Positions 348-64,000 of a stretch of 64,000 bases of DNA are shown here, piece by piece (position 1 is the first letter of the stretch; each line of letters starts with the position of its first letter). The DNA is taken from the sequence record PQ567651.1; one strand, given 5' to 3'. The notes below the pieces were generated by a model. It had not been told where the DNA came from and did not search any database. It saw nothing but the letters and a program-made list of their open reading frames with translations. A program made the position numbers and the translations under genes. The stretch is from Escherichia phage cardinal.

Positions 348-1241
348 TTAAAAATTCCACACGTATGGAGATACAATTTGTTGTTGCAAATCTGACTGAT
401 TCTTAACAAGAACACCGGAATCTTCTTGGATGTTATCTTCCCACACATTAAGAGAATGAATGCAGTCAAAGTGCTCACTTAACTCTTTAAGACCTTTAGA
501 AAAGATACCGTGTGTAACATATAACTCAATCTTACCTGCGTTACGAGCACGTAGCACTTTAGCCAATTCAATAAAAGTTCTACCGCCGTCACAGATATCA
601 TCTACGATCATCAGGTTACGCTTATTGAAATCCTGTACAGAAATGTCTGTACGAACAATAGCACCTGTTGCAGTATCTCTAACCTTCTCTGCACAGAACA
701 CATCTAAAGACATTTTCTTAGATAATTTAAATATTTTCTTAAGAGCACCACCATCAGGACTAACAAGAGCAAAATTCTCCATACGTAACTTCCACTTTAA
801 AGTTTCATAAGCAATCTCTTCTTGAGGTATTACACAGAGTCTGTCAAACACCGCTGGAGTAACATCACTATGTGGATCAGCAACGATAACACGTGAGAAA
901 TTTAATGAATTAATTATAGAAGCAAATGCTTTAACTCCGAATGCTTCACCAGGCTCACACACTCTGTCTTGTCGTGCATACGGTACATACAACATGAGCA
1001 AATCAACACAATATGGTTTATGATATAGCATATTGTCCAATGCATTCTTAGTCATAACCAAAGTCATCAAGTCTTTAGCAGATCTTACTTCTAAAGAGAG
1101 TAAGATTCTGTCTGTAGCATGATTGAAACCTGATAGATTCGTGTCTAGTTGAACATGTTGTTCTCCACCAGAGAATGTAAAGACTTTAACGTCTACATCA
1201 GTAACATAACAGTCAACACCATGTAGAATACTAACTTTCAT
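348..1241 (-). CDS. ribose-phosphate pyrophosphokinase (PRPP synthetase)-like protein; possibly Adps-like
   Basis: 297 aa; PRTase motif MIVDDICDGGRTF, SPDGG and THGIFS motifs typical of Prs. Confidence 0.75.
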   Translation of the reverse strand: MKVSILHGVDCYVTDVDVKVFTFSGGEQHVQLDTNLSGFNHATDRILLSLEVRSAKDLMTLVMTKNALDNMLYHKPYCVDLLMLYVPYARQDRVCEPGEAFGVKAFASIINSLNFSRVIVADPHSDVTPAVFDRLCVIPQEEIAYETLKWKLRMENFALVSPDGGALKKIFKLSKKMSLDVFCAEKVRDTATGAIVRTDISVQDFNKRNLMIVDDICDGGRTFIELAKVLRARNAGKIELYVTHGIFSKGLKELSEHFDCIHSLNVWEDNIQEDSGVLVKNQSDLQQQIVSPYVWNF

Positions 1242-18822: not shown

Positions 18823-18831
18823 AGGAGGAAT

Positions 18832-19167
18832 ATGCCTACATTAGTTGTATTACCTGGAGCAACACCACAAAGACATTGGGGAAATTATACACTGGTAGAT
18901 AGTAAAGATTTTACATTCGATTGGTGTTGCCATTATATTGCAGGTTTTCAATTTTCCAGTGTTGAAATATGGGCTTCCAATGATCCAGAAGCTACCTGGT
19001 ATGCTTTAACCAGGGCAAGATATGATGGAGAGGTTACTGTACTACTCACAAAGAGTGTATGGAACGCATTAGAGAAGGCTTACATAGAGAATGGTATGGA
19101 GAGAAAACACATTGATACAATAAAAGCAATGTGTGATATTGTGGAGGATTTAAATGGCAGCGATTAA
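18832..19167 (+). CDS. hypothetical protein
   Basis: track ORF between nrdA and nrdB. Confidence 0.5.
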   Translation: MPTLVVLPGATPQRHWGNYTLVDSKDFTFDWCCHYIAGFQFSSVEIWASNDPEATWYALTRARYDGEVTVLLTKSVWNALEKAYIENGMERKHIDTIKAMCDIVEDLNGSD

Positions 19168-33062: not shown

Positions 33063-33617
33063 ATGGGTTTTGATGATATGTTATTATATGAGGAGGCTTG
33101 TGTGAAAGAAGCTATGGCTTTACCAGTTTTATCTATTGATATTACAACAGTAGACACTTTTTCAGATTGTGAAACGTGTGGATCGTATTCAAGTATTGTA
33201 CATGTGGTCTGTGGGGATTTAGGCACTTACGAAGATGGAGATTATGCAAGTTGTTTAGGTGATAATCAAGATGGTGAAGTGGCAAATGTTGCAAACTGGA
33301 TTGCTTCTAAGTTAAAAGAAAGAAATCGTCCGTTCCCTAATCTTCTTACACCAGAAGCTATGCTTAAAGCTGAACAAGAGATGTATGATTATGGTTATAA
33401 AGTAGATTATGACTATAATGATCCTAATTATAAAAAATTGAGTGACAAGTATTGGGAACTAGCTAACGCTTATGATAAATACTACTCTACAGAAAACATT
33501 GTTAAATTGTTTTTAGATTTTGGAGTAGAAATTAATTGGGATTTCGAAGAGGAAGAGCGTTACGACGCATCTTCTTGGGATGATGATTACGAAGAGGATA
33601 TTGAATGCGAAGAGTAA
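33063..33617 (+). CDS. hypothetical acidic protein
   Basis: ATG after GGAGG within track ORF 33048..33617. Confidence 0.5.
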   Translation: MGFDDMLLYEEACVKEAMALPVLSIDITTVDTFSDCETCGSYSSIVHVVCGDLGTYEDGDYASCLGDNQDGEVANVANWIASKLKERNRPFPNLLTPEAMLKAEQEMYDYGYKVDYDYNDPNYKKLSDKYWELANAYDKYYSTENIVKLFLDFGVEINWDFEEEERYDASSWDDDYEEDIECEE

Positions 33618-34417
33618 TTTTTGTTAGTGGCGCAGGACTATCTGTGGATAGCGGTATCCCAGCTTTTAGAACAGATACTTCTTCAGGGGAGGCGTTATGG
33701 TCTTCTTATGATCTTTCTGAGGTTTGTGACATTTTCAACTTCCGTGACGGTTATCAGCAAGAACAAGGTGTTCTTGATGCTATGGGTGGTTTAGATGCGG
33801 AAGGATATAACCTCTACCGTAAAACTCACGACTTTTACAATAAACGTCGCGTGGAATTAGAGAAAGTTGACCCGAATCCAGCACATCTTCAGATTGGAGA
33901 ATGGTTCAAAAAATATGGCCCAGAACGAATTATTAACATTACTACTAACGTGGATGACCTCCTTGAACGAGCAGGAGTAGATAGGGAAGAAGTGCTACAT
34001 GTGCACGGTTTTCTTCCTGAAATTACTTTTCAAAGAAAAGCCGGACAACCTACAATTGTAAAAGATGTTGGTTATCAAGCCATAGATGTAGATGACTACC
34101 ATTATGTAAAACCTAATGTAATTTTCTTTGGGGAAGCTGCTCCACTTTACACGGATATGTATTATATTTTTGATACACTGACGGCTCAAGATTTGGTTGT
34201 AGTAGTAGGATGTTCAAACCAAGTTATCAATTTTAATTGGGAATTATTCCCTGCACTTAATATGGGTACAAAAATGATCGTTGTTAACCCAGGAATTAAT
34301 TACGAAGAAACTCTTCTTTACGAAGATAGAGGAGTCTTTGTTTATCGAGAAAAGGCCGCAGATGCTTTTAGCAATCCTGCTTTCATAAAAATGATAGAAG
34401 ATCATTTGACTAAATAA
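33605..34417 (+). CDS. Sir2-family (sirtuin-like) NAD-dependent protein
   Basis: VSGAGLSVDSGIPAFR, TTNVDDL, HG, PNVIFFGE, VVGCS match sirtuin motifs. Confidence 0.7.
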   Translation: MRRVIFVSGAGLSVDSGIPAFRTDTSSGEALWSSYDLSEVCDIFNFRDGYQQEQGVLDAMGGLDAEGYNLYRKTHDFYNKRRVELEKVDPNPAHLQIGEWFKKYGPERIINITTNVDDLLERAGVDREEVLHVHGFLPEITFQRKAGQPTIVKDVGYQAIDVDDYHYVKPNVIFFGEAAPLYTDMYYIFDTLTAQDLVVVVGCSNQVINFNWELFPALNMGTKMIVVNPGINYEETLLYEDRGVFVYREKAADAFSNPAFIKMIEDHLTK

Positions 34418-47198: not shown

Positions 47199-47219
47199 GA
47201 TAATGATTATCATTTGCAT
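47199..47219. promoter_or_regulatory. Fur-box-like palindrome
   Basis: gataatgattatcatttgcat vs Fur box GATAATGATAATCATTATC. Confidence 0.4.
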
Positions 47220-55976: not shown

Positions 55977-56030
55977 AGCGGGAACTATTCCCGCTTTAAG
56001 ATAGCTTATCAGGTTTTAGTGCAATGTCAA
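55977..56030 (-). promoter_or_regulatory. promoter + stem-loop cassette (PeSL-like)
   Basis: plus: gcgggaactattcccgctttaagatagc...tgtcaa. Confidence 0.5.
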
Positions 56031-56036
56031 CCGTTT

Positions 56037-56399
56037 TTATTCGTAAATTTTACCGCTTTCTACCCATACCATAACGCGGCGCATATTATCCCATGCATCT
56101 TGTCGCAGATTTAAGGCATGCAATTCTTCGGTTGTGCTCATACCTGGTACGGGCTTGCTATATGTTACAAAGAGATCGCCAGCATATTCATAAGCCAGGG
56201 TAAGATCACATTGAATCATCTTTTTAAGCATAGCATTAAGCATCATATTAGCGGCATGTTGATCACGTTTTAGCGGTAGCGTTGCGATCTGTGAGCGATA
56301 GCTTTCGATCCGTGCATCCACTGCATCACGTGGAAGATTTTTCACGTCGTCGCGGAAAGATACCAGGTTTAACATGATAGTATTGATTTGCTTGCTCAT
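56037..56399 (-). CDS. hypothetical protein
   Basis: track ORF. Confidence 0.5.
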   Translation of the reverse strand: MSKQINTIMLNLVSFRDDVKNLPRDAVDARIESYRSQIATLPLKRDQHAANMMLNAMLKKMIQCDLTLAYEYAGDLFVTYSKPVPGMSTTEELHALNLRQDAWDNMRRVMVWVESGKIYE

Positions 56400-56424
56400 T
56401 GTGTTACCCTTTCTTTGATGGCCT

Positions 56425-56484
56425 GGCGGGAAACCATTTCCCGCCCTATGTGATACATCTTATCAGATTAAAAAACGTTGTCAA
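56425..56484 (-). promoter_or_regulatory. promoter + stem-loop cassette (PeSL-like), best consensus copy
   Basis: minus: TTGACA-16-TAAGAT-GTATCACATAG-GGCGGGAAATGGTTTCCCGCC, about 25 nt before ATG. Confidence 0.6.
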
Positions 56485-56503
56485 GAATATTTTTTAGATA
56501 ATT

Positions 56504-56785
56504 TTAACTATATGATCCACATTGTTCGCAGTAGTGATCATCGTCGCCATCAGCTACCTGGCTGATAAAGTGATCTACTTTTGCTTTTAGGTTATTATAA
56601 TTGTTTTCTACTTCCTTTAATCGCTCCTGATAGTAGCCCAGGGCTTTAATATACGCCGCCTCTTCTGTTTTTTCACGCATGGCTAAATTCATGCCGCGCG
56701 TATCATCATACAGCCAAAAGCCATCGGTACATTCACTCATTGAAAGGGTAGGGCTTAACTCTTTATGATTAATTACCTTGCTCAT
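56504..56785 (-). CDS. hypothetical protein
   Basis: track ORF, internal ATG start; C-terminal CEQCG. Confidence 0.45.
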   Translation of the reverse strand: MSKVINHKELSPTLSMSECTDGFWLYDDTRGMNLAMREKTEEAAYIKALGYYQERLKEVENNYNNLKAKVDHFISQVADGDDDHYCEQCGSYS

Positions 56786-56796
56786 AGTGTGCGCCT

Positions 56797-56901
56797 TATA
56801 GAATGATTGAAACAACAATTGCTACAGTGATCCACACTGGAACGGCTAACAAAATAGCGTTAATCGTTCCAACCGTCAAGCTGTTTTCTTTCTTGATCAT
56901 C
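56797..56901 (-). CDS. small membrane peptide
   Basis: 34 aa hydrophobic ORF with AAAAGG RBS. Confidence 0.3.
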
Positions 56902-57169
56902 GTTATCAACCTTTTATAAGTAATGTTATTGTGACGGTGGATTGTGGAGATCCTCACCTTTGCCCGTCCTGCATTGCGCCCTCCTTTTGTTTATTGTCGT
57001 TGTGCCTCGCCCCCCTCGACAAGATGAATAATACGCTACCAGGTGAGGAACGTCAACCCCTTTTTTAATCTTTTTTTCATTTCTTTTTTTTGCTTGCTAT
57101 CTATAAAGGAAAGGGCTATTATCTTTCTACCACGCCAACCAGGGCGCACATCAAAGAAAGGGCGATACC

Positions 57170-57436
57170 ATGACAAATACTACTTTACACCTCATGCACT
57201 CATTAGGCTGGCAAGGCGGCACGGTGCACCAGGTAGCAAGCGCAACGGGCTTAAAGGTTGAAACCGTTCTCAACCTGGGCGATCATAAGGTGGAAGAAAT
57301 AGATCATTTTGATACGTTCGCAAATGGTTATCTATGGGCTTGCAGTGGCGGCGGGGAAAGCAAGATCCCACCAGGGGCGCGGGGTGATATATATTTTTGG
57401 TTAGGTGTCCTATCCTGGCAAGAAAACAAAAAATAA
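57170..57436 (+). CDS. hypothetical protein
   Basis: track ORF. Confidence 0.5.
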   Translation: MTNTTLHLMHSLGWQGGTVHQVASATGLKVETVLNLGDHKVEEIDHFDTFANGYLWACSGGGESKIPPGARGDIYFWLGVLSWQENKK

Positions 57437-57438
57437 TA

Positions 57439-57467
57439 TTGACAAGCCCAGGGATCGGGCTTATACT
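57439..57467 (+). promoter_or_regulatory. sigma70-like promoter TTGACA-17-TATACT with palindromic spacer
   Basis: TTGACAagcccagggatcgggctTATACT. Confidence 0.5.
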
Positions 57468-57586
57468 GTTTTACATACAGAAGAGGAAGCGCCACCCCCA
57501 CGGCGTAAAGGCGGGGCTAACATACCAGGGCACTACTGGTTGGAAGGTTGATCGCTGGTACAACGTATTTACAAAGGAGGTTAGCA

Positions 57587-58180
57587 ATGAAAAAAGTTTT
57601 TGGAGTAGGCATTAACGATAGTGCAAAGCCGATCAAAGGTTGTCGATTCTATGCAACATGGCGCAACATGTTACAACGTTGTTATAGTGAATCATATCAG
57701 GACAAAAGGCCATCTTATAAAGGTTGTAGTGTTTGTGATGAATGGTTGACGTTTAGCACTTTTCGTGCTTGGATGGAACAGCAGGATCACCAGGGAAAAC
57801 AATTAGATAAAGATATAATAACACCGGGTAATAAACTCTATTGTCCTGATCGTTGCGTATTTGTAACGCAAGAAATGAATAGTTTGTTAACAGTTACAAA
57901 GAGTAACAAAGGGGATCATCCTTTGGGTGTTTCATTTTTGAATCATAAACCATTGCCGCGCCCTTATTTAGCAACAATACGTTATAATAACGTAGTGGAA
58001 AGATTAGGGTACTATGTAGATCCTTTATCCGCTCATTTGGCCTGGAATAGGCGCAAACGTGAAATAATCATAGAGATTATTAGTAATGAAACGGATTCAA
58101 GGATCGCCGCTGGCTTGGCTTTACGTGTTGACGCTCTCGATCTGGCTTATGAAAATAAAGCGGAAATAACTTGCTTATGA
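57587..58180 (+). CDS. putative homing-endonuclease-like DNA-binding protein
   Basis: ATG after AAGGAGG; N-terminal FYATWRNMLQRCYSESY...GCSVCDEW motif and AP2-like GVSF...RLGYY segment. Confidence 0.4.
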   Translation: MKKVFGVGINDSAKPIKGCRFYATWRNMLQRCYSESYQDKRPSYKGCSVCDEWLTFSTFRAWMEQQDHQGKQLDKDIITPGNKLYCPDRCVFVTQEMNSLLTVTKSNKGDHPLGVSFLNHKPLPRPYLATIRYNNVVERLGYYVDPLSAHLAWNRRKREIIIEIISNETDSRIAAGLALRVDALDLAYENKAEITCL

Positions 58181-58183
58181 CGC

Positions 58184-58212
58184 TTGACAAGCGCCCGACA
58201 AGGGCGCATAAT
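58184..58212 (+). promoter_or_regulatory. TTGACA + palindrome + CATAAT element at start of non-coding region
   Basis: cTTGACAagcgcccgacaagggcgCATAATc. Confidence 0.4.
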
Positions 58213-58436
58213 CTCTTACATAGACAGGAACGCCTACCAATGGCGCTAAACTTGGTGATGATAGCCGCAGGGCATCGACAGCTATAATCGCCGGTAGCTC
58301 GTCTAAAATAAATTTGTAAAGAAATGTAAAGATAAAAATAATCGCTTGCTTTTGTTGTTGGTTATGCTATTCTTATTGTATGGCGAGGGGACACGGGAGC
58401 GCGAGACAAACACCGCCCCTGCGCGTTATTTTCTAA

Positions 58437-58546
58437 ATGAGAAAATTCTCATTTGCTAATGATTCTCATTCTCTTACTGAGAATGATTATCACTTACATA
58501 ATTAAATGATAATGATTCTCATTTACAAATGAGAATGATTATCATA
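58437..58546. promoter_or_regulatory. cluster of Fur-box-like palindromes
   Basis: repeated aatgattctcatt / gagaatgattatcat units. Confidence 0.4.
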
Positions 58547-58569
58547 CGCATACCTATAAAAACACGAAA

Positions 58570-58766
58570 TTGAACTTTTCATTTTTGATTTTTCTACGGA
58601 AAAAGGCAAAAAAACTTTAAATAAACTGGGGAATTTTTAAAAAATTGAAGTTTTCATTTTCAAAATCTGGATAGAAATACGTACAAAAACTTTAAATAAT
58701 TTTGACCAAACTTGAACTTTTCATTTTCAAAATTTGTACCCAAAAATCTGTAAAAACTTTAAATAA
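58570..58766. repeat. 3 direct repeats of ~55-bp unit TTGAACttttcattttcaaaat...aaaaactttaaataa
   Basis: three similar units at about 70-bp period. Confidence 0.7.
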
Positions 58767-59082
58767 TTTTGTACTTTTTATAAAAATGATTTTACTGTTC
58801 TGTTATAAGTAGTAGTTAAGAGATAGTATGCCTTTTAAAGATCAGATACCATAGTCAAACAAACAAATTAAATACTTTATTAACAGAGTACAGAATAATA
58901 TTTACTCTGGATATATTATTCAGAGGGTGGATTTCCGTACATGAAACCCACACCCCTTTTTATAAAAATAAAAATTTTCAAAATATCAGTAAATATCAGA
59001 TTGTGCTTTTAGATAAACAGCAAGGTCTGTATGCCATTTTCCTAAAAGATTTTGTCCTTTCCAACAGTCCTTATTTTCCACA

Positions 59083-59538
59083 TCACGATCCCACATTCCC
59101 ATTTTTGATACCATAAATAGAATCATAAGGGCTTGCCTCTACGAACTCCTTATCTGCGTAAGCGATAAGTTTATTTTTGAGATCTTCATTTTGTGTGTAT
59201 TTAAGATACAAACCACGTTTGACAATCTTCTCCCGTAAAGAAGTCCAGGTATCTTCATCATAATCTTTAACTAATCTGCCTAGACGTTTATAATATGCTT
59301 GTTCTTTTTCTCCTGTATATCTTAGATCTCCGGTTAAAATAGAAGATGCAATATTGTAATCATAAAACAAACATGCTTTTCTCCACATCATATATTGTTC
59401 CACACAAGTAAATTCGACAGAACTTGTGATAGAATTATTATACTTGGGAGCTAAAGGTTCAATAAAAGATGATAGATACCAGTTGCTAAATTCATCTTTT
59501 GCCGAGAAAAAGAACACATACTTGTCAGTAATCCGCAT
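59083..59538 (-). CDS. NADAR (YbiA-like, DUF1768) domain protein; C-terminus apparently frameshifted
   Basis: FTCVEQYMMWRKACLF, RLGRLVKDYDEDTW, EFVEASPYDSIYGI match NADAR; conserved C-terminal WKGQNLLG lies in +1 frame. Confidence 0.6.
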   Translation of the reverse strand: MRITDKYVFFFSAKDEFSNWYLSSFIEPLAPKYNNSITSSVEFTCVEQYMMWRKACLFYDYNIASSILTGDLRYTGEKEQAYYKRLGRLVKDYDEDTWTSLREKIVKRGLYLKYTQNEDLKNKLIAYADKEFVEASPYDSIYGIKNGNVGS

Positions 59539-60936
59539 TTACACCTCCTTATTGTATACTAATTTGCCACCATATTGTGTAACAATTTTTTGAAGATTTT
59601 CCAAATCAGAAACACTTACTGTTTCTGTATGACCATCTTTCAACTCTCTTGCCGTTAAAATACCAGTTTTTAATTTTTTCTTTATAGCTCTTTCAGCAGC
59701 CTTACATTGTTTCACTGTGCTAAAATCATATAAACAAATACGCTCCATAGGAAACATATTACAGCTATTTTGACGTTTTAATCGACTATCACTATTTTTA
59801 GCTATACCAAACTTAAGAGCAACTATAATATTATCATCCTTAACAATATTAATATATAACTGCTGCTGACTATGACCAGCACACATAGGACAACCTCGAC
59901 CGTGGCTTAATAAGGCATTAGCCCTCCCTGTCTGTTCCCCATGCACAAGACAAAGATATTTAAACTTACCGTGACTTCTAGACGGTTTACCGATCCAACC
60001 TACCCAGACATACCCTTTCCCTTCTACTTCCTTTTTTACCCTGTAGGTAATCTGATTTTCTGTATAGTGATAACTAGTTGCACAGCGGCAAGGGATACTT
60101 CCTTGTTTTAGGGGCCACCCTTTAGAGTAAAATTTACCATCGCAAACACCTGCTTGAACATATTCATCATGGGAGCAAACAGGACACTCAACCATCCATA
60201 CTGCATCACGCTTGTTACGTTTCCCTGTATTGGTGAAGATAGTGCCTTCCTTAAATTTCCCTGTAGAAAAGAAATCTGCAATATGTTGATCGTCGGACAT
60301 TGTTAGTGCCTTCCTTGTATTCTCATACCTACATAAAGGACAACCATAACCACGTTTAAAATTGTTAATACTTGTAGTATCCCATTTATAACCACAGTGA
60401 CACAACAAATCAAGTTTTGTTTTATGTCCTTTCCATTTTCCAACGTACCCTAACACCTGATACCCCTTCTTCTGTGCTATCTCTTCCAAGATCGGTAATT
60501 CTGTTTCCCATGCTAACGGTTTATTACTTGCACATGCCGGACAACCACGTCCATTCCTAAAATCAATAATGTTTGTGGTGTTCCACTCTCCATGTTTAGG
60601 GCAAATTATGCGAATTTTTGTTCGCACACCTCGCCACTCCTCGGCAAGACCTATAAAAGTAAACCCTCTTTCTTTAGCAATATCAACAAGGGAGATACAT
60701 TCCTTTTCTTCTGTTACTTTTCTATGACCATTGCAATCGGAGCAACATTTACCGCCTTTAGTTTTAAATACATTGATTATGGTACTTTCCCACTCTCCAT
60801 GATCAGAGCAAGATAGCTTAAGCCTAGTCCTGCTACCTTTCCATTCACCAACATAACCCAAGATTTGAATATTGTGATTTTTAGCAAGGGGTATTAATTC
60901 TTCTTTATATTGTTCCCATGATTTTAGTGCTACCAT
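59539..60936 (-). CDS. protein with five N-terminal Cys-rich (zinc-ribbon-like) repeats and C-terminal T5orf172/GIY-YIG-like domain
   Basis: repeats of LGYVGEWKG..TKL.L.C..HGEW.TT.IN.F..G.GCP.C; C-terminal LYINIV...FGIAKNSDSRLKRQ. Confidence 0.5.
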   Translation of the reverse strand: MVALKSWEQYKEELIPLAKNHNIQILGYVGEWKGSRTRLKLSCSDHGEWESTIINVFKTKGGKCCSDCNGHRKVTEEKECISLVDIAKERGFTFIGLAEEWRGVRTKIRIICPKHGEWNTTNIIDFRNGRGCPACASNKPLAWETELPILEEIAQKKGYQVLGYVGKWKGHKTKLDLLCHCGYKWDTTSINNFKRGYGCPLCRYENTRKALTMSDDQHIADFFSTGKFKEGTIFTNTGKRNKRDAVWMVECPVCSHDEYVQAGVCDGKFYSKGWPLKQGSIPCRCATSYHYTENQITYRVKKEVEGKGYVWVGWIGKPSRSHGKFKYLCLVHGEQTGRANALLSHGRGCPMCAGHSQQQLYINIVKDDNIIVALKFGIAKNSDSRLKRQNSCNMFPMERICLYDFSTVKQCKAAERAIKKKLKTGILTARELKDGHTETVSVSDLENLQKIVTQYGGKLVYNKEV

Positions 60937-60973
60937 CTACTACTCCTTTTATTAAATCTGGCATCAATACAAG

Positions 60974-61000
60974 AAAACCCGCCGAAGCGGGTTTTTATTT
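60974..61000. terminator. terminator hairpin cccgc-cgaag-gcggg with A/T flanks
   Basis: caagaaaacccgccgaagcgggtttttattt; identical core at 35177. Confidence 0.6.
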
Positions 61001-61010
61001 GCTGGCTTAC

Positions 61011-62045
61011 TTAAAACACACTTGCCAAAGTTGCACCATTGGTGATAGTTGGTTCCAGAACAATACGGAAAGAATCTTCTGGATCATCACTAAACACAAC
61101 GATTTTACCGCCTGTAATAAGGTCTGCTTTCATTTTTGTCGCATTCAATGGAATTCGAGCATCTCCTTCATCATCAAAAACCACGTAAGAGCTATTAGCA
61201 AGGGCTTCTTTAGAGTCTGCATCACTTGGAGATGACAAGTACACGTCTAGTGTGCACGAACCACCTAAAAAGATTGCAGGTGTGAAGTTATGCCAACTAG
61301 ATACCCAGCTAACTTTCTGAAGTTTTCCATTAATAACAACGCTGCTGATATCCCATTTATTACCACCACCTAAAGAAACACCCATCATAGAGATGCATTC
61401 TTTAAAGGATAAATCAGGGTAGAAATTAAGTTCTTCTACTATACCTTGGATCACATCAAAGGACAACTCTAAACTTACATCCCAAAGTCTTTGGAAATTA
61501 TCAAAGTGTGCTTTGTTATCCAGGTTTTTATCTAAATAGTCAATCATAGTTTCTAGTGAGATTTTATCATAATTAAAATTATAAAACACACGACTAGGAC
61601 GATTTAAAAAGAATTCAGAGATAAAACCACTGTTTTTAGTCAGAATAAACAGTTTATTACCACTGCCAGTACCATCTAACAAAGTGAGAAGTGCTTCTTG
61701 ATCTTGTTTCTTCTCATACACTTTATCAAACTCGTCAAAAATAATCACTGCTTTGTCGGTGATCTTGCTAATAAGTTCAATGAAATTAGCATCGCTGTAG
61801 GCTTGAGTAACCATAATAGTTGGAATACCTTCTTCTACAAGGTCACGACTAATGAGTTTGGCTAACATAGTTTTACCACTGCCCTTAGTTCCTGTCAGGA
61901 GCAAACCTGTATTTTTACCTTGTGCACTCCGGCGATGGAATGTACGAATAACGTGATTTGCTCGTTTTTCTGTTTCACCATACAGAACATCCGGTACACC
62001 TGTTAGATTACCACGGCTTAAAAAAATAATTGCCAAGGGGATCAC
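61011..62045 (-). CDS. AAA+/P-loop ATPase; N-terminus may extend to ATG near 62140 through a frameshift at an A7/T7 run
   Basis: Walker A GTKGSGKTML, Walker B VIIFDEFD; GTG start lacks RBS while upstream ATG has AAGGGG RBS in +1 frame. Confidence 0.6.
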   Translation of the reverse strand: MIPLAIIFLSRGNLTGVPDVLYGETEKRANHVIRTFHRRSAQGKNTGLLLTGTKGSGKTMLAKLISRDLVEEGIPTIMVTQAYSDANFIELISKITDKAVIIFDEFDKVYEKKQDQEALLTLLDGTGSGNKLFILTKNSGFISEFFLNRPSRVFYNFNYDKISLETMIDYLDKNLDNKAHFDNFQRLWDVSLELSFDVIQGIVEELNFYPDLSFKECISMMGVSLGGGNKWDISSVVINGKLQKVSWVSSWHNFTPAIFLGGSCTLDVYLSSPSDADSKEALANSSYVVFDDEGDARIPLNATKMKADLITGGKIVVFSDDPEDSFRIVLEPTITNGATLASVF

Positions 62046-62151
62046 GACTAACAGTATAGAATCCAGGTGGAAGATAGTTAGATTCCACGCCCATATCTTT
62101 ATTTACACTTACAATATCACCATAAATCGTGTATTTCATTTTAAACCCCTT

Positions 62152-62589
62152 TTATTTTTGTTGAGATGAACGAATTAAATCAGCAGCAAATTCAATCAGA
62201 TACACTTTTGGTGCAATAATGATTTTTAGCCAATCAAAATTCGAAAAGAAAATAACAAATCCTAAAAAGAAAAAGAAAGCACAGACAACAAGACCAACAA
62301 TAGGTAAAGCAGATACTTCACCATAGCGATCTCGTGACCACAGGCATTCTTTATCTTTAATTGCTTTTACGAGGTTCCGTACAGCAATAAAAGTAATAAA
62401 CATAAAGCAAATACTAAAAAGTTGCCATAAACCTGCGGATACTGCTTTCCACAATAACAATTGATGGATTACTTCTGGAATTTGTTGTTTTCCAAACTCC
62501 ACAACATCACTCATTGTTTGAATAGTGACGTTAACCATGTTCAGAAGTACATCCGTTGCTTTATCTGCGATTGCGTTTGTTTTACTCAT
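62152..62589 (-). CDS. hypothetical membrane protein
   Basis: two or three hydrophobic helices. Confidence 0.5.
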   Translation of the reverse strand: MSKTNAIADKATDVLLNMVNVTIQTMSDVVEFGKQQIPEVIHQLLLWKAVSAGLWQLFSICFMFITFIAVRNLVKAIKDKECLWSRDRYGEVSALPIVGLVVCAFFFFLGFVIFFSNFDWLKIIIAPKVYLIEFAADLIRSSQQK

Positions 62590-62603
62590 TCTTTATTCCT
62601 CAC

Positions 62604-62778
62604 TTACCTTTTAAGGAAACCAATCATAATGAAGAACCACATCCAGGCAGGAGAGATAATAAAGCCAAAGAAACCGCAAATAACCGCTTTCTTAATCTCT
62701 TCCAGACAACCCACCAGGAAAAGACCGAGTGAGACTACAATCCAGATAGCCATAAATACTGTAACAAAGAAACTCATA
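62604..62778 (-). CDS. small membrane protein
   Basis: 58 aa hydrophobic ORF with GGGAGAAAGG RBS. Confidence 0.35.
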
Positions 62779-62797
62779 CCTTTCTCCCGTCTGTATT

Positions 62798-63049
62798 TTA
62801 AAATTCAACCACCACTTTATCGAGGTGCTCTGCTTCAACTTGATCTAATGTTAACACCTCAACTAAACCCTTGTCAATACCTAATTTAATAACATCAACA
62901 TATTGTCCAAACAGATCCTGAATAGATATCTTGTGTTCGACAACAACCACTACTTCATTCCCTTTTGTGAATTCTCTCCATACACGTCCACATTTGAAAA
63001 TAAAGTCTGCTTCATCTGCTGTTATCATTTTAGGTTTGATACTTAACAT
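62798..63049 (-). CDS. hypothetical protein
   Basis: track ORF. Confidence 0.5.
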   Translation of the reverse strand: MLSIKPKMITADEADFIFKCGRVWREFTKGNEVVVVVEHKISIQDLFGQYVDVIKLGIDKGLVEVLTLDQVEAEHLDKVVVEF

Positions 63050-63600
63050 TATAAAACTCCGTATTCCGGCTCAAAATCATATTTTTCACAAATCATGTCC
63101 CAGCGTTCGTTGCCGAAGCTGCGACCACAAATTGCATCGTAAGCATAATGCTCTGCTAACCATTTTACAACAGTGTCTACATCGTTATCAAGTGGTAATC
63201 TGAATTCTTTGCCATATCGCATACGAAGAACAAATTCATCCCCTTCTTCAAACAAGTGCATATGGCTTTTTGCATAAGAAGCCAAGTTGAAAAAAGATAC
63301 CTCTTCCCAGCATTCTTTTTCCACTGCAATCCCGTGATCAACAACTAAAGCACCGATAACGCGATACATAATAGGGCTAAACAGTGCGCTTGAGCTAGGC
63401 TGCTCTTCAACTACAGACCAACCTGTTCCCTGCCAAATTTCATTTTTGAACCATTGTTGCATGTCATTCCCTTTTTCATCTACAAGGGATCGGTTACGCA
63501 TTTCAAACCATTCTCCTTCGCAAAAGTATTTATGTTTAACACGTTTGCCTTTTAACATTGCTTCTTTGGCTTCTATCCAAGTCAGATCGGTGTTTTGCAT
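63049..63600 (-). CDS. DUF2829-like (Tad2-fold-like) N-terminal domain fused to unknown C-terminal domain
   Basis: ATG after GGAGATAAACGA; TWIEAKEAMLKGKRVKH...EIWQGTGWSVVEE resembles DUF2829 consensus. Confidence 0.4.
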   Translation of the reverse strand: MQNTDLTWIEAKEAMLKGKRVKHKYFCEGEWFEMRNRSLVDEKGNDMQQWFKNEIWQGTGWSVVEEQPSSSALFSPIMYRVIGALVVDHGIAVEKECWEEVSFFNLASYAKSHMHLFEEGDEFVLRMRYGKEFRLPLDNDVDTVVKWLAEHYAYDAICGRSFGNERWDMICEKYDFEPEYGVL

Positions 63601-63719
63601 TCGTTTATCTCCTCTCATTTGTGTATGCATTAAGATTAGCACAATAAAACAGTATGTCAATACTTGATCTGAAATTAATTTCTGGTATTCTGTGTGTATC
63701 GTAACAAAAGAGGTTAGAT

Positions 63720-64000
63720 ATGAACATCACACTAGCAACTAAGAATATTACAGAAACTTTTGATGGTTTTGGCATTATTATTGCTGTTCATGGGCATAAC
63801 GAAAAATGGTTAGCCTCTTTTGAAGAGGACAAAGAACGCAATGTACGTTTGAATGCACCAATCAAAGTTTTACACCAGGTAGGTGAGAATAAGAAACAAT
63901 GGAGATCATACAAAGAGTGGAACATTACGAACGAGTTAATACACAAACTTGACAAAGTGATAAACATGTTCGACAATGCACCAAGCAGTGCAAAACGTGT
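63720..64000 (+). CDS. hypothetical protein, 5' part; continues past window end
   Basis: ATG after AAGAGG, open to window end; absent from track because no stop in window. Confidence 0.4.
   Translation, partial: MNITLATKNITETFDGFGIIIAVHGHNEKWLASFEEDKERNVRLNAPIKVLHQVGENKKQWRSYKEWNITNELIHKLDKVINMFDNAPSSAKR

What the first reader, a model, noticed from the sequence alone, without database searches (positions are those of the whole stretch)
59083..63660. Candidate counter-defence operon at the window end
One minus-strand transcription unit appears to hold a DUF2829-like protein, two membrane proteins, an AAA+ ATPase, then after an internal terminator the Zn-ribbon/T5orf172 protein and a NADAR protein. 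Two members point to ADP-ribose or NAD-derived signal processing, which together with the Sir2 and NAMPT/Prs genes suggests an arsenal aimed at NAD+-based immunity. The ATPase, membrane and nuclease-like members have no assigned role and could form a new module.
Basis: inference. Interest (0 to 1): 0.65.

Follow-up and report, generated by a model that had tools for sequence, protein, structure and literature searches.

The report
Mixed accessory gene block, phi92-like phage
This stretch of an E. coli phage genome is a tightly packed block of accessory genes, not a proven single operon: it holds one already-proven anti-immunity enzyme, one selfish homing-nuclease gene, one new-looking fusion protein with the fold of a known immune-signal sponge, and an ATPase whose relatives in other phages often sit next to NAD-related genes.

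Summary
The genes are there as described. The window is a Justusliebigvirus (phi92-like coliphage), 95.7% identical to BASEL phage Bas60.

On the minus strand, in order:
- a sigma-70-like promoter;
- a 183-aa protein (phi92 gp217);
- two small membrane proteins;
- a classic AAA+ ATPase;
- a strong intrinsic terminator;
- a CapR-repeat/T5orf172 protein;
- a NADAR protein.

ATPase and NADAR each carry a +1 homopolymer frameshift that is absent from relatives.

Gene by gene:
- **NADAR:** its Bas60 orthologue (3 of 183 residues different) was already shown to counter DarTG1.
- **T5orf172 protein:** it fits the published homing-endonuclease class, so it is probably selfish rather than a module member.
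- **ATPase:** outside this phage subfamily it travels without the other genes. However, in 29 of 84 loci it lies near NAMPT, NMNAT-Nudix, Macro, Prs, NADAR or Tad2-like genes. This is a lead, not proof.

Verdict: the counter-defence theme is partly supported; a single functional module is not.

The parts
63633..63660 (-). Sigma-70-like promoter: TTGACA (63660-63655), 16-nt spacer, extended -10 TGcTAATCT (63641-63633). It diverges from a + strand gene that starts near 63720.
   Evidence: Read from the sequence. The consensus scan missed it because the -10 matches only 3 of 6 positions. Function is inferred.
63049..63600 (-). phi92 gp217 homologue, 183 aa, a two-domain fusion. The N-domain (residues 1-66, nt 63403-63600) has the Tad2/DUF2829 fold. 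The C-domain (residues 73-183, nt 63052-63384) has a type III secretion chaperone/YbjN-like fold.
62798..63049 (-). phi92 gp218 homologue, 83 aa, unknown function. Its start overlaps the gp217 stop.
   Evidence: phrog_4868, E 6e-34. Conserved at 55-74% in L006 and L086.
62604..62777 (-). 57-aa membrane protein with two hydrophobic segments.
   Evidence: phrog_22950. Hydropathy segments 1-29 and 31-55.
62152..62589 (-). 145-aa membrane protein with two hydrophobic regions (about 49-77 and 89-126).
   Evidence: phrog_3054, E 1.5e-44. Hydropathy. A 38%-identical homologue lies upstream of the ATPase in L086.
61011..62139 (-). Classic-clade AAA+ ATPase (phi92 gp221), 375 aa in relatives. Here it is interrupted by a +1 T in a T run near 62020.
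   Evidence: PF00004, E 1.5e-9; phrog_2376, E 7e-108. Invariant Walker A, Walker B, sensor 1 and SRH arginines. Best PDB matches are the p97/Cdc48 D2 domain. Frameshift shown.
60974..60995 (-). Intrinsic terminator between the ATPase and the endonuclease gene.
   Evidence: Annotated as a terminator on both strands in phage Paula.
59539..60936 (-). T5orf172-family homing endonuclease, 465 aa: five CapR zinc-finger repeats plus a C-terminal T5orf172 (GIY-YIG-like) domain.
   Evidence: PF21817 at 167 bits in 5 stretches and PF10544 at 26.3 bits. phrog_681 'endonuclease'. Phage Paula has one repeat fewer, 390 aa. The class is described in PMC10448857.
58986..59538 (-). NADAR gene (orthologue of NADAR-Bas60, bas60_0111). 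In this sequence a +1 A near 59102 stops the frame at 59083.
   Evidence: PF08719, E 2.5e-36 after repair. 3 of 183 residues differ from Bas60. Anti-DarTG1 activity of NADAR-Bas60 is reported in PMC11257639.

Best explanation
This is a compact block of accessory, probably early, genes in a phi92-like phage. It is made of parts with separate histories rather than one dedicated machine.

**Unit A (63660 to 60974).** It appears to be driven by a host-type promoter and ends at a strong terminator. It encodes:
- gp217, a Tad2-fold domain fused to a peptide-binding, chaperone-like domain;
- an 83-aa protein;
- two small membrane proteins;
- a hexamer-type AAA+ ATPase.

**Unit B (60936 to 58986).** No promoter of its own was seen by eye in the 74-nt gap, so expression would need read-through. 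It encodes:
- a CapR/T5orf172 homing endonuclease, a selfish gene;
- a NADAR DNA ADP-ribosylglycohydrolase that removes DarT1-made ADP-ribose from guanine and so defeats DarTG1.

**Inferred, not shown:**
- gp217 sequesters an NAD-derived or other nucleotide immune signal, as Tad2 proteins do.
- The ATPase acts in the same NAD+/ADP-ribose conflict, for example by remodelling a protein target.
- The endonuclease helps spread the neighbouring NADAR gene by gene conversion in mixed infections.

The two frameshifts are most likely homopolymer assembly errors.
For: - Identity and gene order.
- Tight spacing (overlaps or 12-20 nt) within each unit, and a 74-nt gap holding the terminator between them.
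- NADAR function shown for the Bas60 orthologue.
- Homing-endonuclease architecture, and repeat-number variation between close relatives, as published for this class.
- Tad2 fold of the gp217 N-domain. 5 of 32 family members weakly hit PF11195 (best E 0.0028).
- Helix, five-strand meander, helix layout of the C-domain, matching type III secretion chaperones and YbjN proteins.
- Core of C-domain protein, gp218, membrane protein and ATPase kept in relatives whose ATPase is 67-75% identical, while the endonuclease and NADAR vary.
- ATPase relatives near NAD+/ADP-ribose genes (NAMPT, NMNAT-Nudix, Macro, Prs, NADAR, Tad2-like domain) in 29 of 84 loci, spread over 6 of 27 ATPase lineages. Macro and NAMPT were the two commonest same-strand neighbour families in an unbiased clustering.
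- The ATPase paralogue in Bas60 lies in a cluster with HAD, PRTase_3, Macro and TerC.
- About six CDS-disrupting indels in 55 kb against Bas60, four of them homopolymer +/-1. All 55 close relatives have an intact ATPase.
Against: - There are no transcript data. The promoter was called by eye and the scan tool did not find it.
- The N-domain gives no Pfam Tad2 hit and no significant profile match to solved Tad2 chains. It has about 65 residues against 89 in SPO1 Tad2, so it appears to lack the C-terminal helix that carries T78 and D79 of the Tad2 pocket. That last point is inference from secondary structure.
- Bas60 is restricted by a cGAMP CBASS.
- In four annotated or called loci from other lineages (CBB, TsarBomba, EfV12-phi1, LAh_6) and in Aeromonas phage BUCT695, the ATPase has no NAD-related neighbour.
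- The NAMPT-adjacent loci may be one lineage with inherited synteny.
- No background rate for such neighbours was measured.
Confidence: 0.6

Rival explanations
1. One reading: one co-transcribed counter-defence operon whose ATPase, membrane and nuclease members form a new module that cooperates against NAD+-based immunity.
For: All genes are co-oriented and tightly packed. Two members have ADP-ribose/NAD-linked folds. The same order (C-domain protein, gp218, ATPase, endonuclease, NADAR) is kept in a Phapecoctavirus-like contig, L006.
Against: A strong terminator splits the block. The endonuclease belongs to a selfish class. L086 keeps unit A without the endonuclease or NADAR. There is no co-occurrence outside the subfamily. 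NADAR-Bas60 works alone when expressed ectopically.
Confidence: 0.12
2. Unit A has nothing to do with immunity. It could be a host-takeover, membrane-remodelling, superinfection-exclusion or protein-quality-control set, and the Tad2-like fold would be a generic small binding or oligomerisation domain.
For: There are no PADLOC, NCBIfam or Pfam functional hits for gp217, gp218 or the membrane proteins. The ATPase family is broad among large myoviruses and often has unrelated neighbours. The similarity to Tad2 is in fold only.
Confidence: 0.3
3. The two frameshifts are real, so this isolate has lost functional ATPase and NADAR genes, for example after propagation on a host without DarTG1.
For: Both are in coding sequence, while most other indels against Bas60 are intergenic. 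A 15-residue C-terminal truncation already inactivates AdfN in RB69, so a truncated NADAR would be dead.
Against: Both are +1 changes in homopolymer runs. Four other genes in the window carry similar disruptions. The repaired ATPase is 100% identical to that of relatives.
Confidence: 0.25

Closest known systems
NADAR-Bas60, an orphan phage NADAR that counters DarTG1 (LeRoux lab, PMC11257639); related to T4 AdfN
   Same: Orthologue with 180 of 183 residues identical after repair. It has the same position next to the endonuclease gene and a NADAR Pfam domain. E46 and K53 have the 7-residue spacing of AdfN E36/K43 (read by eye).
   Different: It is frameshifted at codon ~146 in this sequence. It is not of the AdfN clade, and the authors place it with non-DarT, non-YbiA bacterial NADARs.
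Tad2 / DUF2829 sponge proteins (SPO1 Tad2, ModTad2, AcrIIA7/HgmTad2)
   Different: About 65 residues instead of 85-105. No Pfam or profile match for this protein. It appears to lack the helix carrying T78/D79. It is fused to a 110-residue chaperone-like domain, an architecture not mentioned in the passages of the Tad2 papers consulted here. Tetramer formation and ligand binding are untested.
T5orf172 homing endonucleases with CapR zinc-finger repeats (ICP1 gp165/gp174; PLE CapR)
   Same: Repeated CapR domains at the N-terminus, a T5orf172 domain at the C-terminus, repeat-number variation between close relatives, and location at a boundary of lower identity.
   Different: Five repeats. Cleavage site and homing are unknown. 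It is kept at the same site in two genera, so it may be old or domesticated.
Classic-clade AAA+ unfoldases (p97/Cdc48 D2, FtsH AAA module)
   Same: Walker A GxxGSGKT, Walker B DEFD, sensor 1 T-x-N, and an SRH-like NRPxR with two invariant arginines.
   Different: A single AAA module with its own ~60-residue N-domain and ~130-residue C-terminal region. It has no M41 protease domain and no membrane anchor, so the database label 'FtsH-like protease / Zn metalloprotease' is not supported. The pore-loop motif is not conserved in this member.
TY-chaperones (type III secretion chaperones and YbjN), including TY-Chap families linked to ADP-ribosylglycohydrolase systems (PMC9503650)
   Different: There is no sequence-level link. 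The family has its own motif (KSH...RY...GRxFGNxxW). The TY-Chap families were described in bacterial systems, not as phage proteins fused to a Tad2-like domain.

Membership tests
NADAR (PF08719), anti-DarTG1 orphan antitoxin type | NADAR domain above Pfam's gathering score | tested here: met
   104.5 bits as found and 125.8 bits after repair, against a cut-off of 35.1. TIGR02464 scores 109.8 against 73.7.
NADAR (PF08719), anti-DarTG1 orphan antitoxin type | Intact reading frame including the C-terminal helix (its loss inactivates AdfN in RB69) | tested here: not met
   A +1 A near 59102 ends the frame at residue 151 of 183. This is probably a sequence error, but that is unverified.
NADAR (PF08719), anti-DarTG1 orphan antitoxin type | Catalytic Glu and Lys (AdfN E36, K43) | tested here: inconclusive
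   E46 and K53 in 'VEQYMMWRK' have the same spacing. This was read by eye and not aligned to a structure.
NADAR (PF08719), anti-DarTG1 orphan antitoxin type | Reverses DarT1 guanine ADP-ribosylation and rescues phage from DarTG1 | not testable with these tools
   Shown for the Bas60 orthologue, which differs at 3 of 183 residues (PMC11257639).
Tad2 / DUF2829 (PF11195) | Match to the Pfam Tad2-like model | tested here: not met
   No hit for the window protein even at E <= 10. 5 of 32 N-domain relatives hit weakly, best E 0.0028. A profile search against solved Tad2 chains gives E 0.78.
Tad2 / DUF2829 (PF11195) | Tad2 fold: N-terminal helix plus antiparallel sheet | tested here: met
Tad2 / DUF2829 (PF11195) | Complete ligand pocket (SPO1 W25, N26, W73, T78, D79) | tested here: inconclusive
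   Aromatic positions F26 and W61 are conserved in the family. The domain ends about 4 residues after the last strand, so an equivalent of helix alpha-3 seems absent. No residue-level structural alignment was available.
Tad2 / DUF2829 (PF11195) | Homotetramer that sequesters gcADPR or another immune nucleotide | not testable with these tools
   No multimer modelling or binding assay was available.
T5orf172 homing endonuclease | T5orf172 nuclease domain at one terminus | tested here: met
   PF10544 at 26.3 bits against a cut-off of 20, residues 367-453.
T5orf172 homing endonuclease | CapR, DUF723 or DUF4397 zinc-finger DNA-binding repeats | tested here: met
   PF21817 at 167 bits in 5 stretches. 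Paired cysteines (CSDC, CPAC, CPLC, CPVC, CPMC) are visible in the translation.
T5orf172 homing endonuclease | Sporadic or variable presence, and faster divergence than flanking genes | tested here: met
   79-84% protein identity against 97-100% for the flanks. One repeat fewer in Paula. 45% identity in L006. No T5orf172/CapR gene follows the ATPase in L086, which carries a CapR-hit ORF elsewhere on the opposite strand.
T5orf172 homing endonuclease | Site-specific cleavage and homing | not testable with these tools
   Needs co-infection crosses or cleavage assays.
Classic AAA+ ATPase | Walker A, Walker B, sensor 1 and SRH arginines | tested here: met
   Invariant G83, G86, S87, G88, K89, T90; D135, E136; T167, N169; R180, R183 in 28 homologues. 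p97 D2 at E 1e-12.
FtsH-like protease (label used in Bas60 and Paula records) | M41 zinc-protease domain and membrane anchor | tested here: not met
   Only AAA-type P-loop families appear among the best 25 of 37 Pfam hits listed. There are no hydrophobic segments.
Single operon | One promoter, no internal terminator, one transcript | tested here: not met
   A strong terminator lies at 60974-60995.
Conserved multi-gene module | Members co-occur across unrelated phages | tested here: not met
   Of 80 IMG/VR loci with an ATPase relative, only the two phi92-like ones carry the other genes. L086 keeps unit A only.

The most novel reading that the evidence does not exclude
Two things may be new. First, the AAA+ ATPase family (two paralogues per phi92-like genome) may be an unrecognised partner of phage NAD+/ADP-ribose counter-defence gene sets: NAMPT with NMNAT-Nudix, Macro, NADAR, Prs, and PRTase_3/HAD/TerC. 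Second, gp217 may be a new Tad2-fold sponge fused to a chaperone-like domain that works with this ATPase and the membrane proteins.
Probability: 0.2. Interest if true: 0.7.

Novelty: new variant of a known kind. Interest (0 to 1): 0.45.

Why it matters
- The NADAR and endonuclease parts add nothing new.
- If the short Tad2-fold domain of gp217 binds an immune signal, it would extend the Tad2 family to a minimal ~65-residue form and to a fusion architecture. It would also give coliphages of a therapy-relevant genus a second counter-defence gene.
- If the link between the ATPase and NAD/ADP-ribose genes survives a phylogeny-corrected test, an energy-using component would join what are so far described as enzyme-only or sponge-only counter-measures.
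- Bas60 is a tractable BASEL phage, so both ideas can be tested directly.

Tried and rejected
- Single-sequence AlphaFold of gp217 gave pLDDT 47 and was unusable.
- The word-indexed homologue search for gp217 found only its own cluster. The exhaustive HMMER search was needed.
- MAFFT placed the C-domain homologues on the N-domain in two alignments. A smaller set fixed this.
- phmmer and profile searches of gp217 against PDB sequences gave only chance-level hits.
- PADLOC and NCBIfam gave nothing for gp217, gp218 or the membrane proteins, and only generic P-loop hits for the ATPase.
- Rfam found no RNA family in 56000-64000.
- The idea that the frameshifts single out this block was rejected, because four other genes in the window are disrupted in the same way.
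- The 'FtsH-like protease' label was rejected.
- No NAMPT was found in the window ORFs scanned with Pfam or in the Bas60 annotation of the region examined.
- A literature search for an ATPase linked to NARP2 was uninformative.

Full report
**What the window is.** Region 59000-63800 matches 84 phage records. The best is Escherichia phage PaulScherrer (BASEL Bas60, genus Justusliebigvirus, subfamily Stephanstirmvirinae) at 95.7% identity over its full length. The genes are homologues of phi92 gp217 to gp223/224.

**Checking the observation.**
- On the minus strand the mechanical ORFs and family scans give, in order:
  - a 183-aa protein at 63049-63600;
  - an 83-aa protein at 62798-63049;
  - a 57-aa protein and a 145-aa protein, each with two hydrophobic segments;
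  - an AAA ATPase;
  - a terminator;
  - a 465-aa protein with five CapR repeats and a T5orf172 domain;
  - a NADAR protein.
- The TTG at 63660 that begins the mechanical ORF is the first base of a TTGACA hexamer. This hexamer is followed, after 16 nt, by TGcTAATCT. The ATG at 63600 has a GAGG ribosome-binding site and matches the annotated start in relatives. I read this promoter by eye; the scan tool did not report it.
- Genes within each half overlap or lie 12-20 nt apart.
- The 74-nt gap between the ATPase and the next gene holds a 9-bp GC stem with a UUCG loop and a U-rich tail (-16 kcal/mol, z -2.25). Phage Paula annotates it as a terminator on both strands.

**Two frameshifts.**
- Against both PaulScherrer and Paula, the window has one extra T in a T run near 62020 and one extra A in an A run near 59102.
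- Removing them restores a 375-aa ATPase that is 100% identical to Bas60's, and a 183-aa NADAR that differs at three residues.
- All 55 near-identical phage records have the full-length ATPase.
- Across about 55 kb aligned to Bas60 I found 23 isolated non-triplet indels. About six fall inside annotated genes (window 26351, 28458, 38027, 43268, 59102, 62020), and four of those are homopolymer changes (with the annotation).
- The frameshifts are therefore not special to this block. They are most simply assembly errors, but this is unverified.
- If real, the NADAR would probably be dead, because a 15-residue C-terminal truncation inactivates AdfN in RB69.

**NADAR.**
- The LeRoux laboratory identified NADAR-Bas60 in Bas60-62. 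Ectopic expression raised plating of three DarTG1-sensitive phages by several logs. It neutralised DarT1 without phage, and it did not counter DarTG2 (PMC11257639).
- This member is therefore already known.
- Its target is NAD+-dependent DNA ADP-ribosylation, not NAD+ depletion or a diffusible signal.

**The zinc-ribbon/T5orf172 protein.**
- Barth and colleagues describe T5orf172 homing endonucleases whose DNA-binding ends are repeated CapR, DUF723 or DUF4397 zinc fingers. These recombine between repeats and sit at boundaries of genetic exchange (PMC10448857).
- The window protein fits this class: PF21817 at 167 bits in five stretches, and PF10544 at 26.3 bits against a cut-off of 20.
- Paula's copy lacks one repeat (390 aa).
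- Protein identity to close relatives is 79-84%, while every neighbour is 97-100%.
- It is best read as a selfish gene. Homing itself was not tested.

**gp217.**
- No Pfam, NCBIfam, PADLOC or PDB-sequence match was found.
- An exhaustive HMMER search of 1.84 billion representatives found 45 relatives. They split cleanly into standalone proteins of about 60-65 aa matching residues 1-68, and proteins of about 110 aa matching residues 73-183. gp217 is therefore a fusion.
- With a 20-row alignment, AlphaFold gave pLDDT 89.3 and a disordered linker at residues 67-71.
- BFVD returned a 63-aa 'DUF2829 domain-containing protein' (E 4.5e-4) and 'Thoeris anti-defense 2-like' proteins.
- Five of 32 N-domain relatives weakly hit PF11195.
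- The secondary structure (helix 8-16, then four strands with a short helix before the last) agrees with the published Tad2 topology.
- However, the domain is about 24 residues shorter than SPO1 Tad2. It seems to lack the helix that carries T78 and D79 of the gcADPR pocket. Membership of the fold is supported; function as a sponge is inference.
- Tad2 proteins are now known to bind gcADPR, His-ADPR, N7-cADPR and cyclic pyrimidines, so the ligand cannot be guessed.
- Bas60 is restricted by an E. albertii cGAMP CBASS, which argues against cGAMP.
- In a close relative (L005) and in a Phapecoctavirus-like contig (L006), the C-domain is a separate 112-aa gene and the Tad2-like part is not fused to it. 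The fusion therefore looks specific to the phi92 lineage.

**The ATPase.**
- Walker A, Walker B, sensor 1 and two SRH arginines are invariant in 28 homologues.
- The best solved relatives are p97/Cdc48 D2 modules.
- There is no protease domain and no membrane segment, so the 'FtsH-like protease' label is unsupported.
- The family is broad: 360 phage records, including jumbo phages, Herelleviridae and Aeromonas phages, and more than 329 IMG/VR loci.

**Is it a module?**
- In 80 IMG/VR loci fetched with the ATPase as bait, gp217, gp218, the 145-aa membrane protein, the endonuclease and NADAR were found only in the two phi92-like loci.
- A metagenomic relative whose ATPase is 75% identical (L086) keeps this order: C-domain protein (38% identical), an 80-aa protein, gp218 (55%), membrane protein (38%), ATPase. 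What follows the ATPase there is not an endonuclease or a NADAR.
- Unit A is thus a conserved core within this phage group, and unit B is a variable addition.
- None of this shows functional coupling, because synteny within one subfamily is inherited.

**An unplanned lead.**
- I clustered the same-strand ORFs within 3 kb of the ATPase in 82 loci. The two commonest neighbour families were a Macro-containing cluster (14 loci) and a 465-aa protein (13 loci).
- Pfam identifies the 465-aa protein as NAMPT. A third family is an NMNAT-Nudix fusion.
- With iterated profiles, 16 of 84 loci have NAMPT within 8 kb, 10 of them ending 77-238 bp upstream of the ATPase. 13 have NMNAT-Nudix and 17 have Macro. 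In all, 29 loci carry at least one NAD/ADP-ribose gene.
- Grouping the ATPases by single linkage at 60% identity gives 27 groups, and 6 of these contain such loci.
- Salmonella phage pSal-SNUABM-01 has Prs and a nicotinate/nicotinamide phosphoribosyltransferase 3-4 kb downstream of its ATPase.
- Bas60's second ATPase paralogue (bas60_0075, about 15 kb beyond the window end) heads a run of HAD, PRTase_3 and Macro genes, with TerC nearby.
- Against this, four annotated phages (CBB, TsarBomba, EfV12-phi1, LAh_6) and Aeromonas phage BUCT695 show no such neighbours.
- The NAMPT-adjacent loci may share ancestry, and I measured no background rate.
- The passages I searched in the Iyer et al. survey (no 'AAA+' hit at all) and in the NARP3 paper do not mention this ATPase.

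**Verdict.**
- The counter-defence theme is right for NADAR (already known) and plausible for gp217.
- The nuclease is a selfish element.
- A single cooperating module is not supported.
- The new pieces are the Tad2-fold/chaperone fusion and the ATPase neighbourhood pattern. Both are worth testing in Bas60.

Noticed in passing
window 58430-58790: The 800-bp non-coding stretch downstream of NADAR holds nested palindromes that resemble Fur boxes (58445-58545, 3 mismatches to GATAATGATAATCATTATC). It also holds three direct repeats of about 70-79 nt (58567-58787). The window has four Fur-box-like matches in all, against 0.03 expected. It could be a regulatory region or an origin.
   Followed up: partly
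window 47199-47217: A further Fur-box-like palindrome, with 2 mismatches to the 19-bp consensus.
   Followed up: no
window 57548-58180 (+): A 210-aa ORF on the opposite strand with no Pfam or NCBIfam hit. It is absent from the Bas60 and Paula annotations and sits in a locally GC-richer stretch (0.42). By eye the C-terminal half looks AP2-like, as in some homing endonuclease relatives.
   Followed up: partly
window 26351, 28458, 38027, 43268: Four more indels relative to Bas60 fall inside annotated genes: a small hypothetical gene, a putative phosphatase, a putative transcription factor and bas60_0156. This suggests homopolymer errors in this assembly.
   Followed up: partly
MZ501100.1 59888-63670 (L093 7889-11671), about 15 kb beyond the window end: A second paralogue of the ATPase (386 aa; L008 and L009, the paralogue loci, match the window ATPase at 47% identity) heads a run of two small genes, then HAD hydrolase, PRTase_3 (ComF-like) and a Macro-domain protein, with TerC a little further on. 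It resembles a Ter-type nucleoside-metabolite cluster.
   Followed up: partly
L016 6419-10429; L025 5407-7882; also L033, L038, L040, L056, L065, L070, L076: Distant ATPase homologues lie directly downstream of NAMPT, with NMNAT-Nudix (the NARP2 pair) and a ~170-aa Macro protein close by.
   Followed up: partly
L005 5478-7091: This near-identical relative has a standalone C-domain gene preceded by an unrelated 83-aa gene. A degraded copy of the Tad2-like N-domain lies on the opposite strand next to the divergent promoter, so the head of the block has been rearranged in this lineage.
   Followed up: partly
window about 18831-19166 (+): By coordinate mapping to bas60_0220, this should be the homologue of Ksap2, the Bas60 protein sensed by the KpAvs2 NLR-like defence protein (PMC11564622). 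It was not translated or checked.
   Followed up: no
window 348-1241 (-) and 33605-34417 (+): A Prs-like phosphoribosyl-pyrophosphate synthetase ORF and a Sir2 ORF are confirmed by Pfam.
   Followed up: partly
L088 5001-5195: A standalone 64-aa homologue of the gp217 N-domain sits among small genes of unknown function in a ~54-kb phage that encodes an RNA polymerase (PF00940). An ArdA anti-restriction gene lies 4.6 kb downstream.
   Followed up: no
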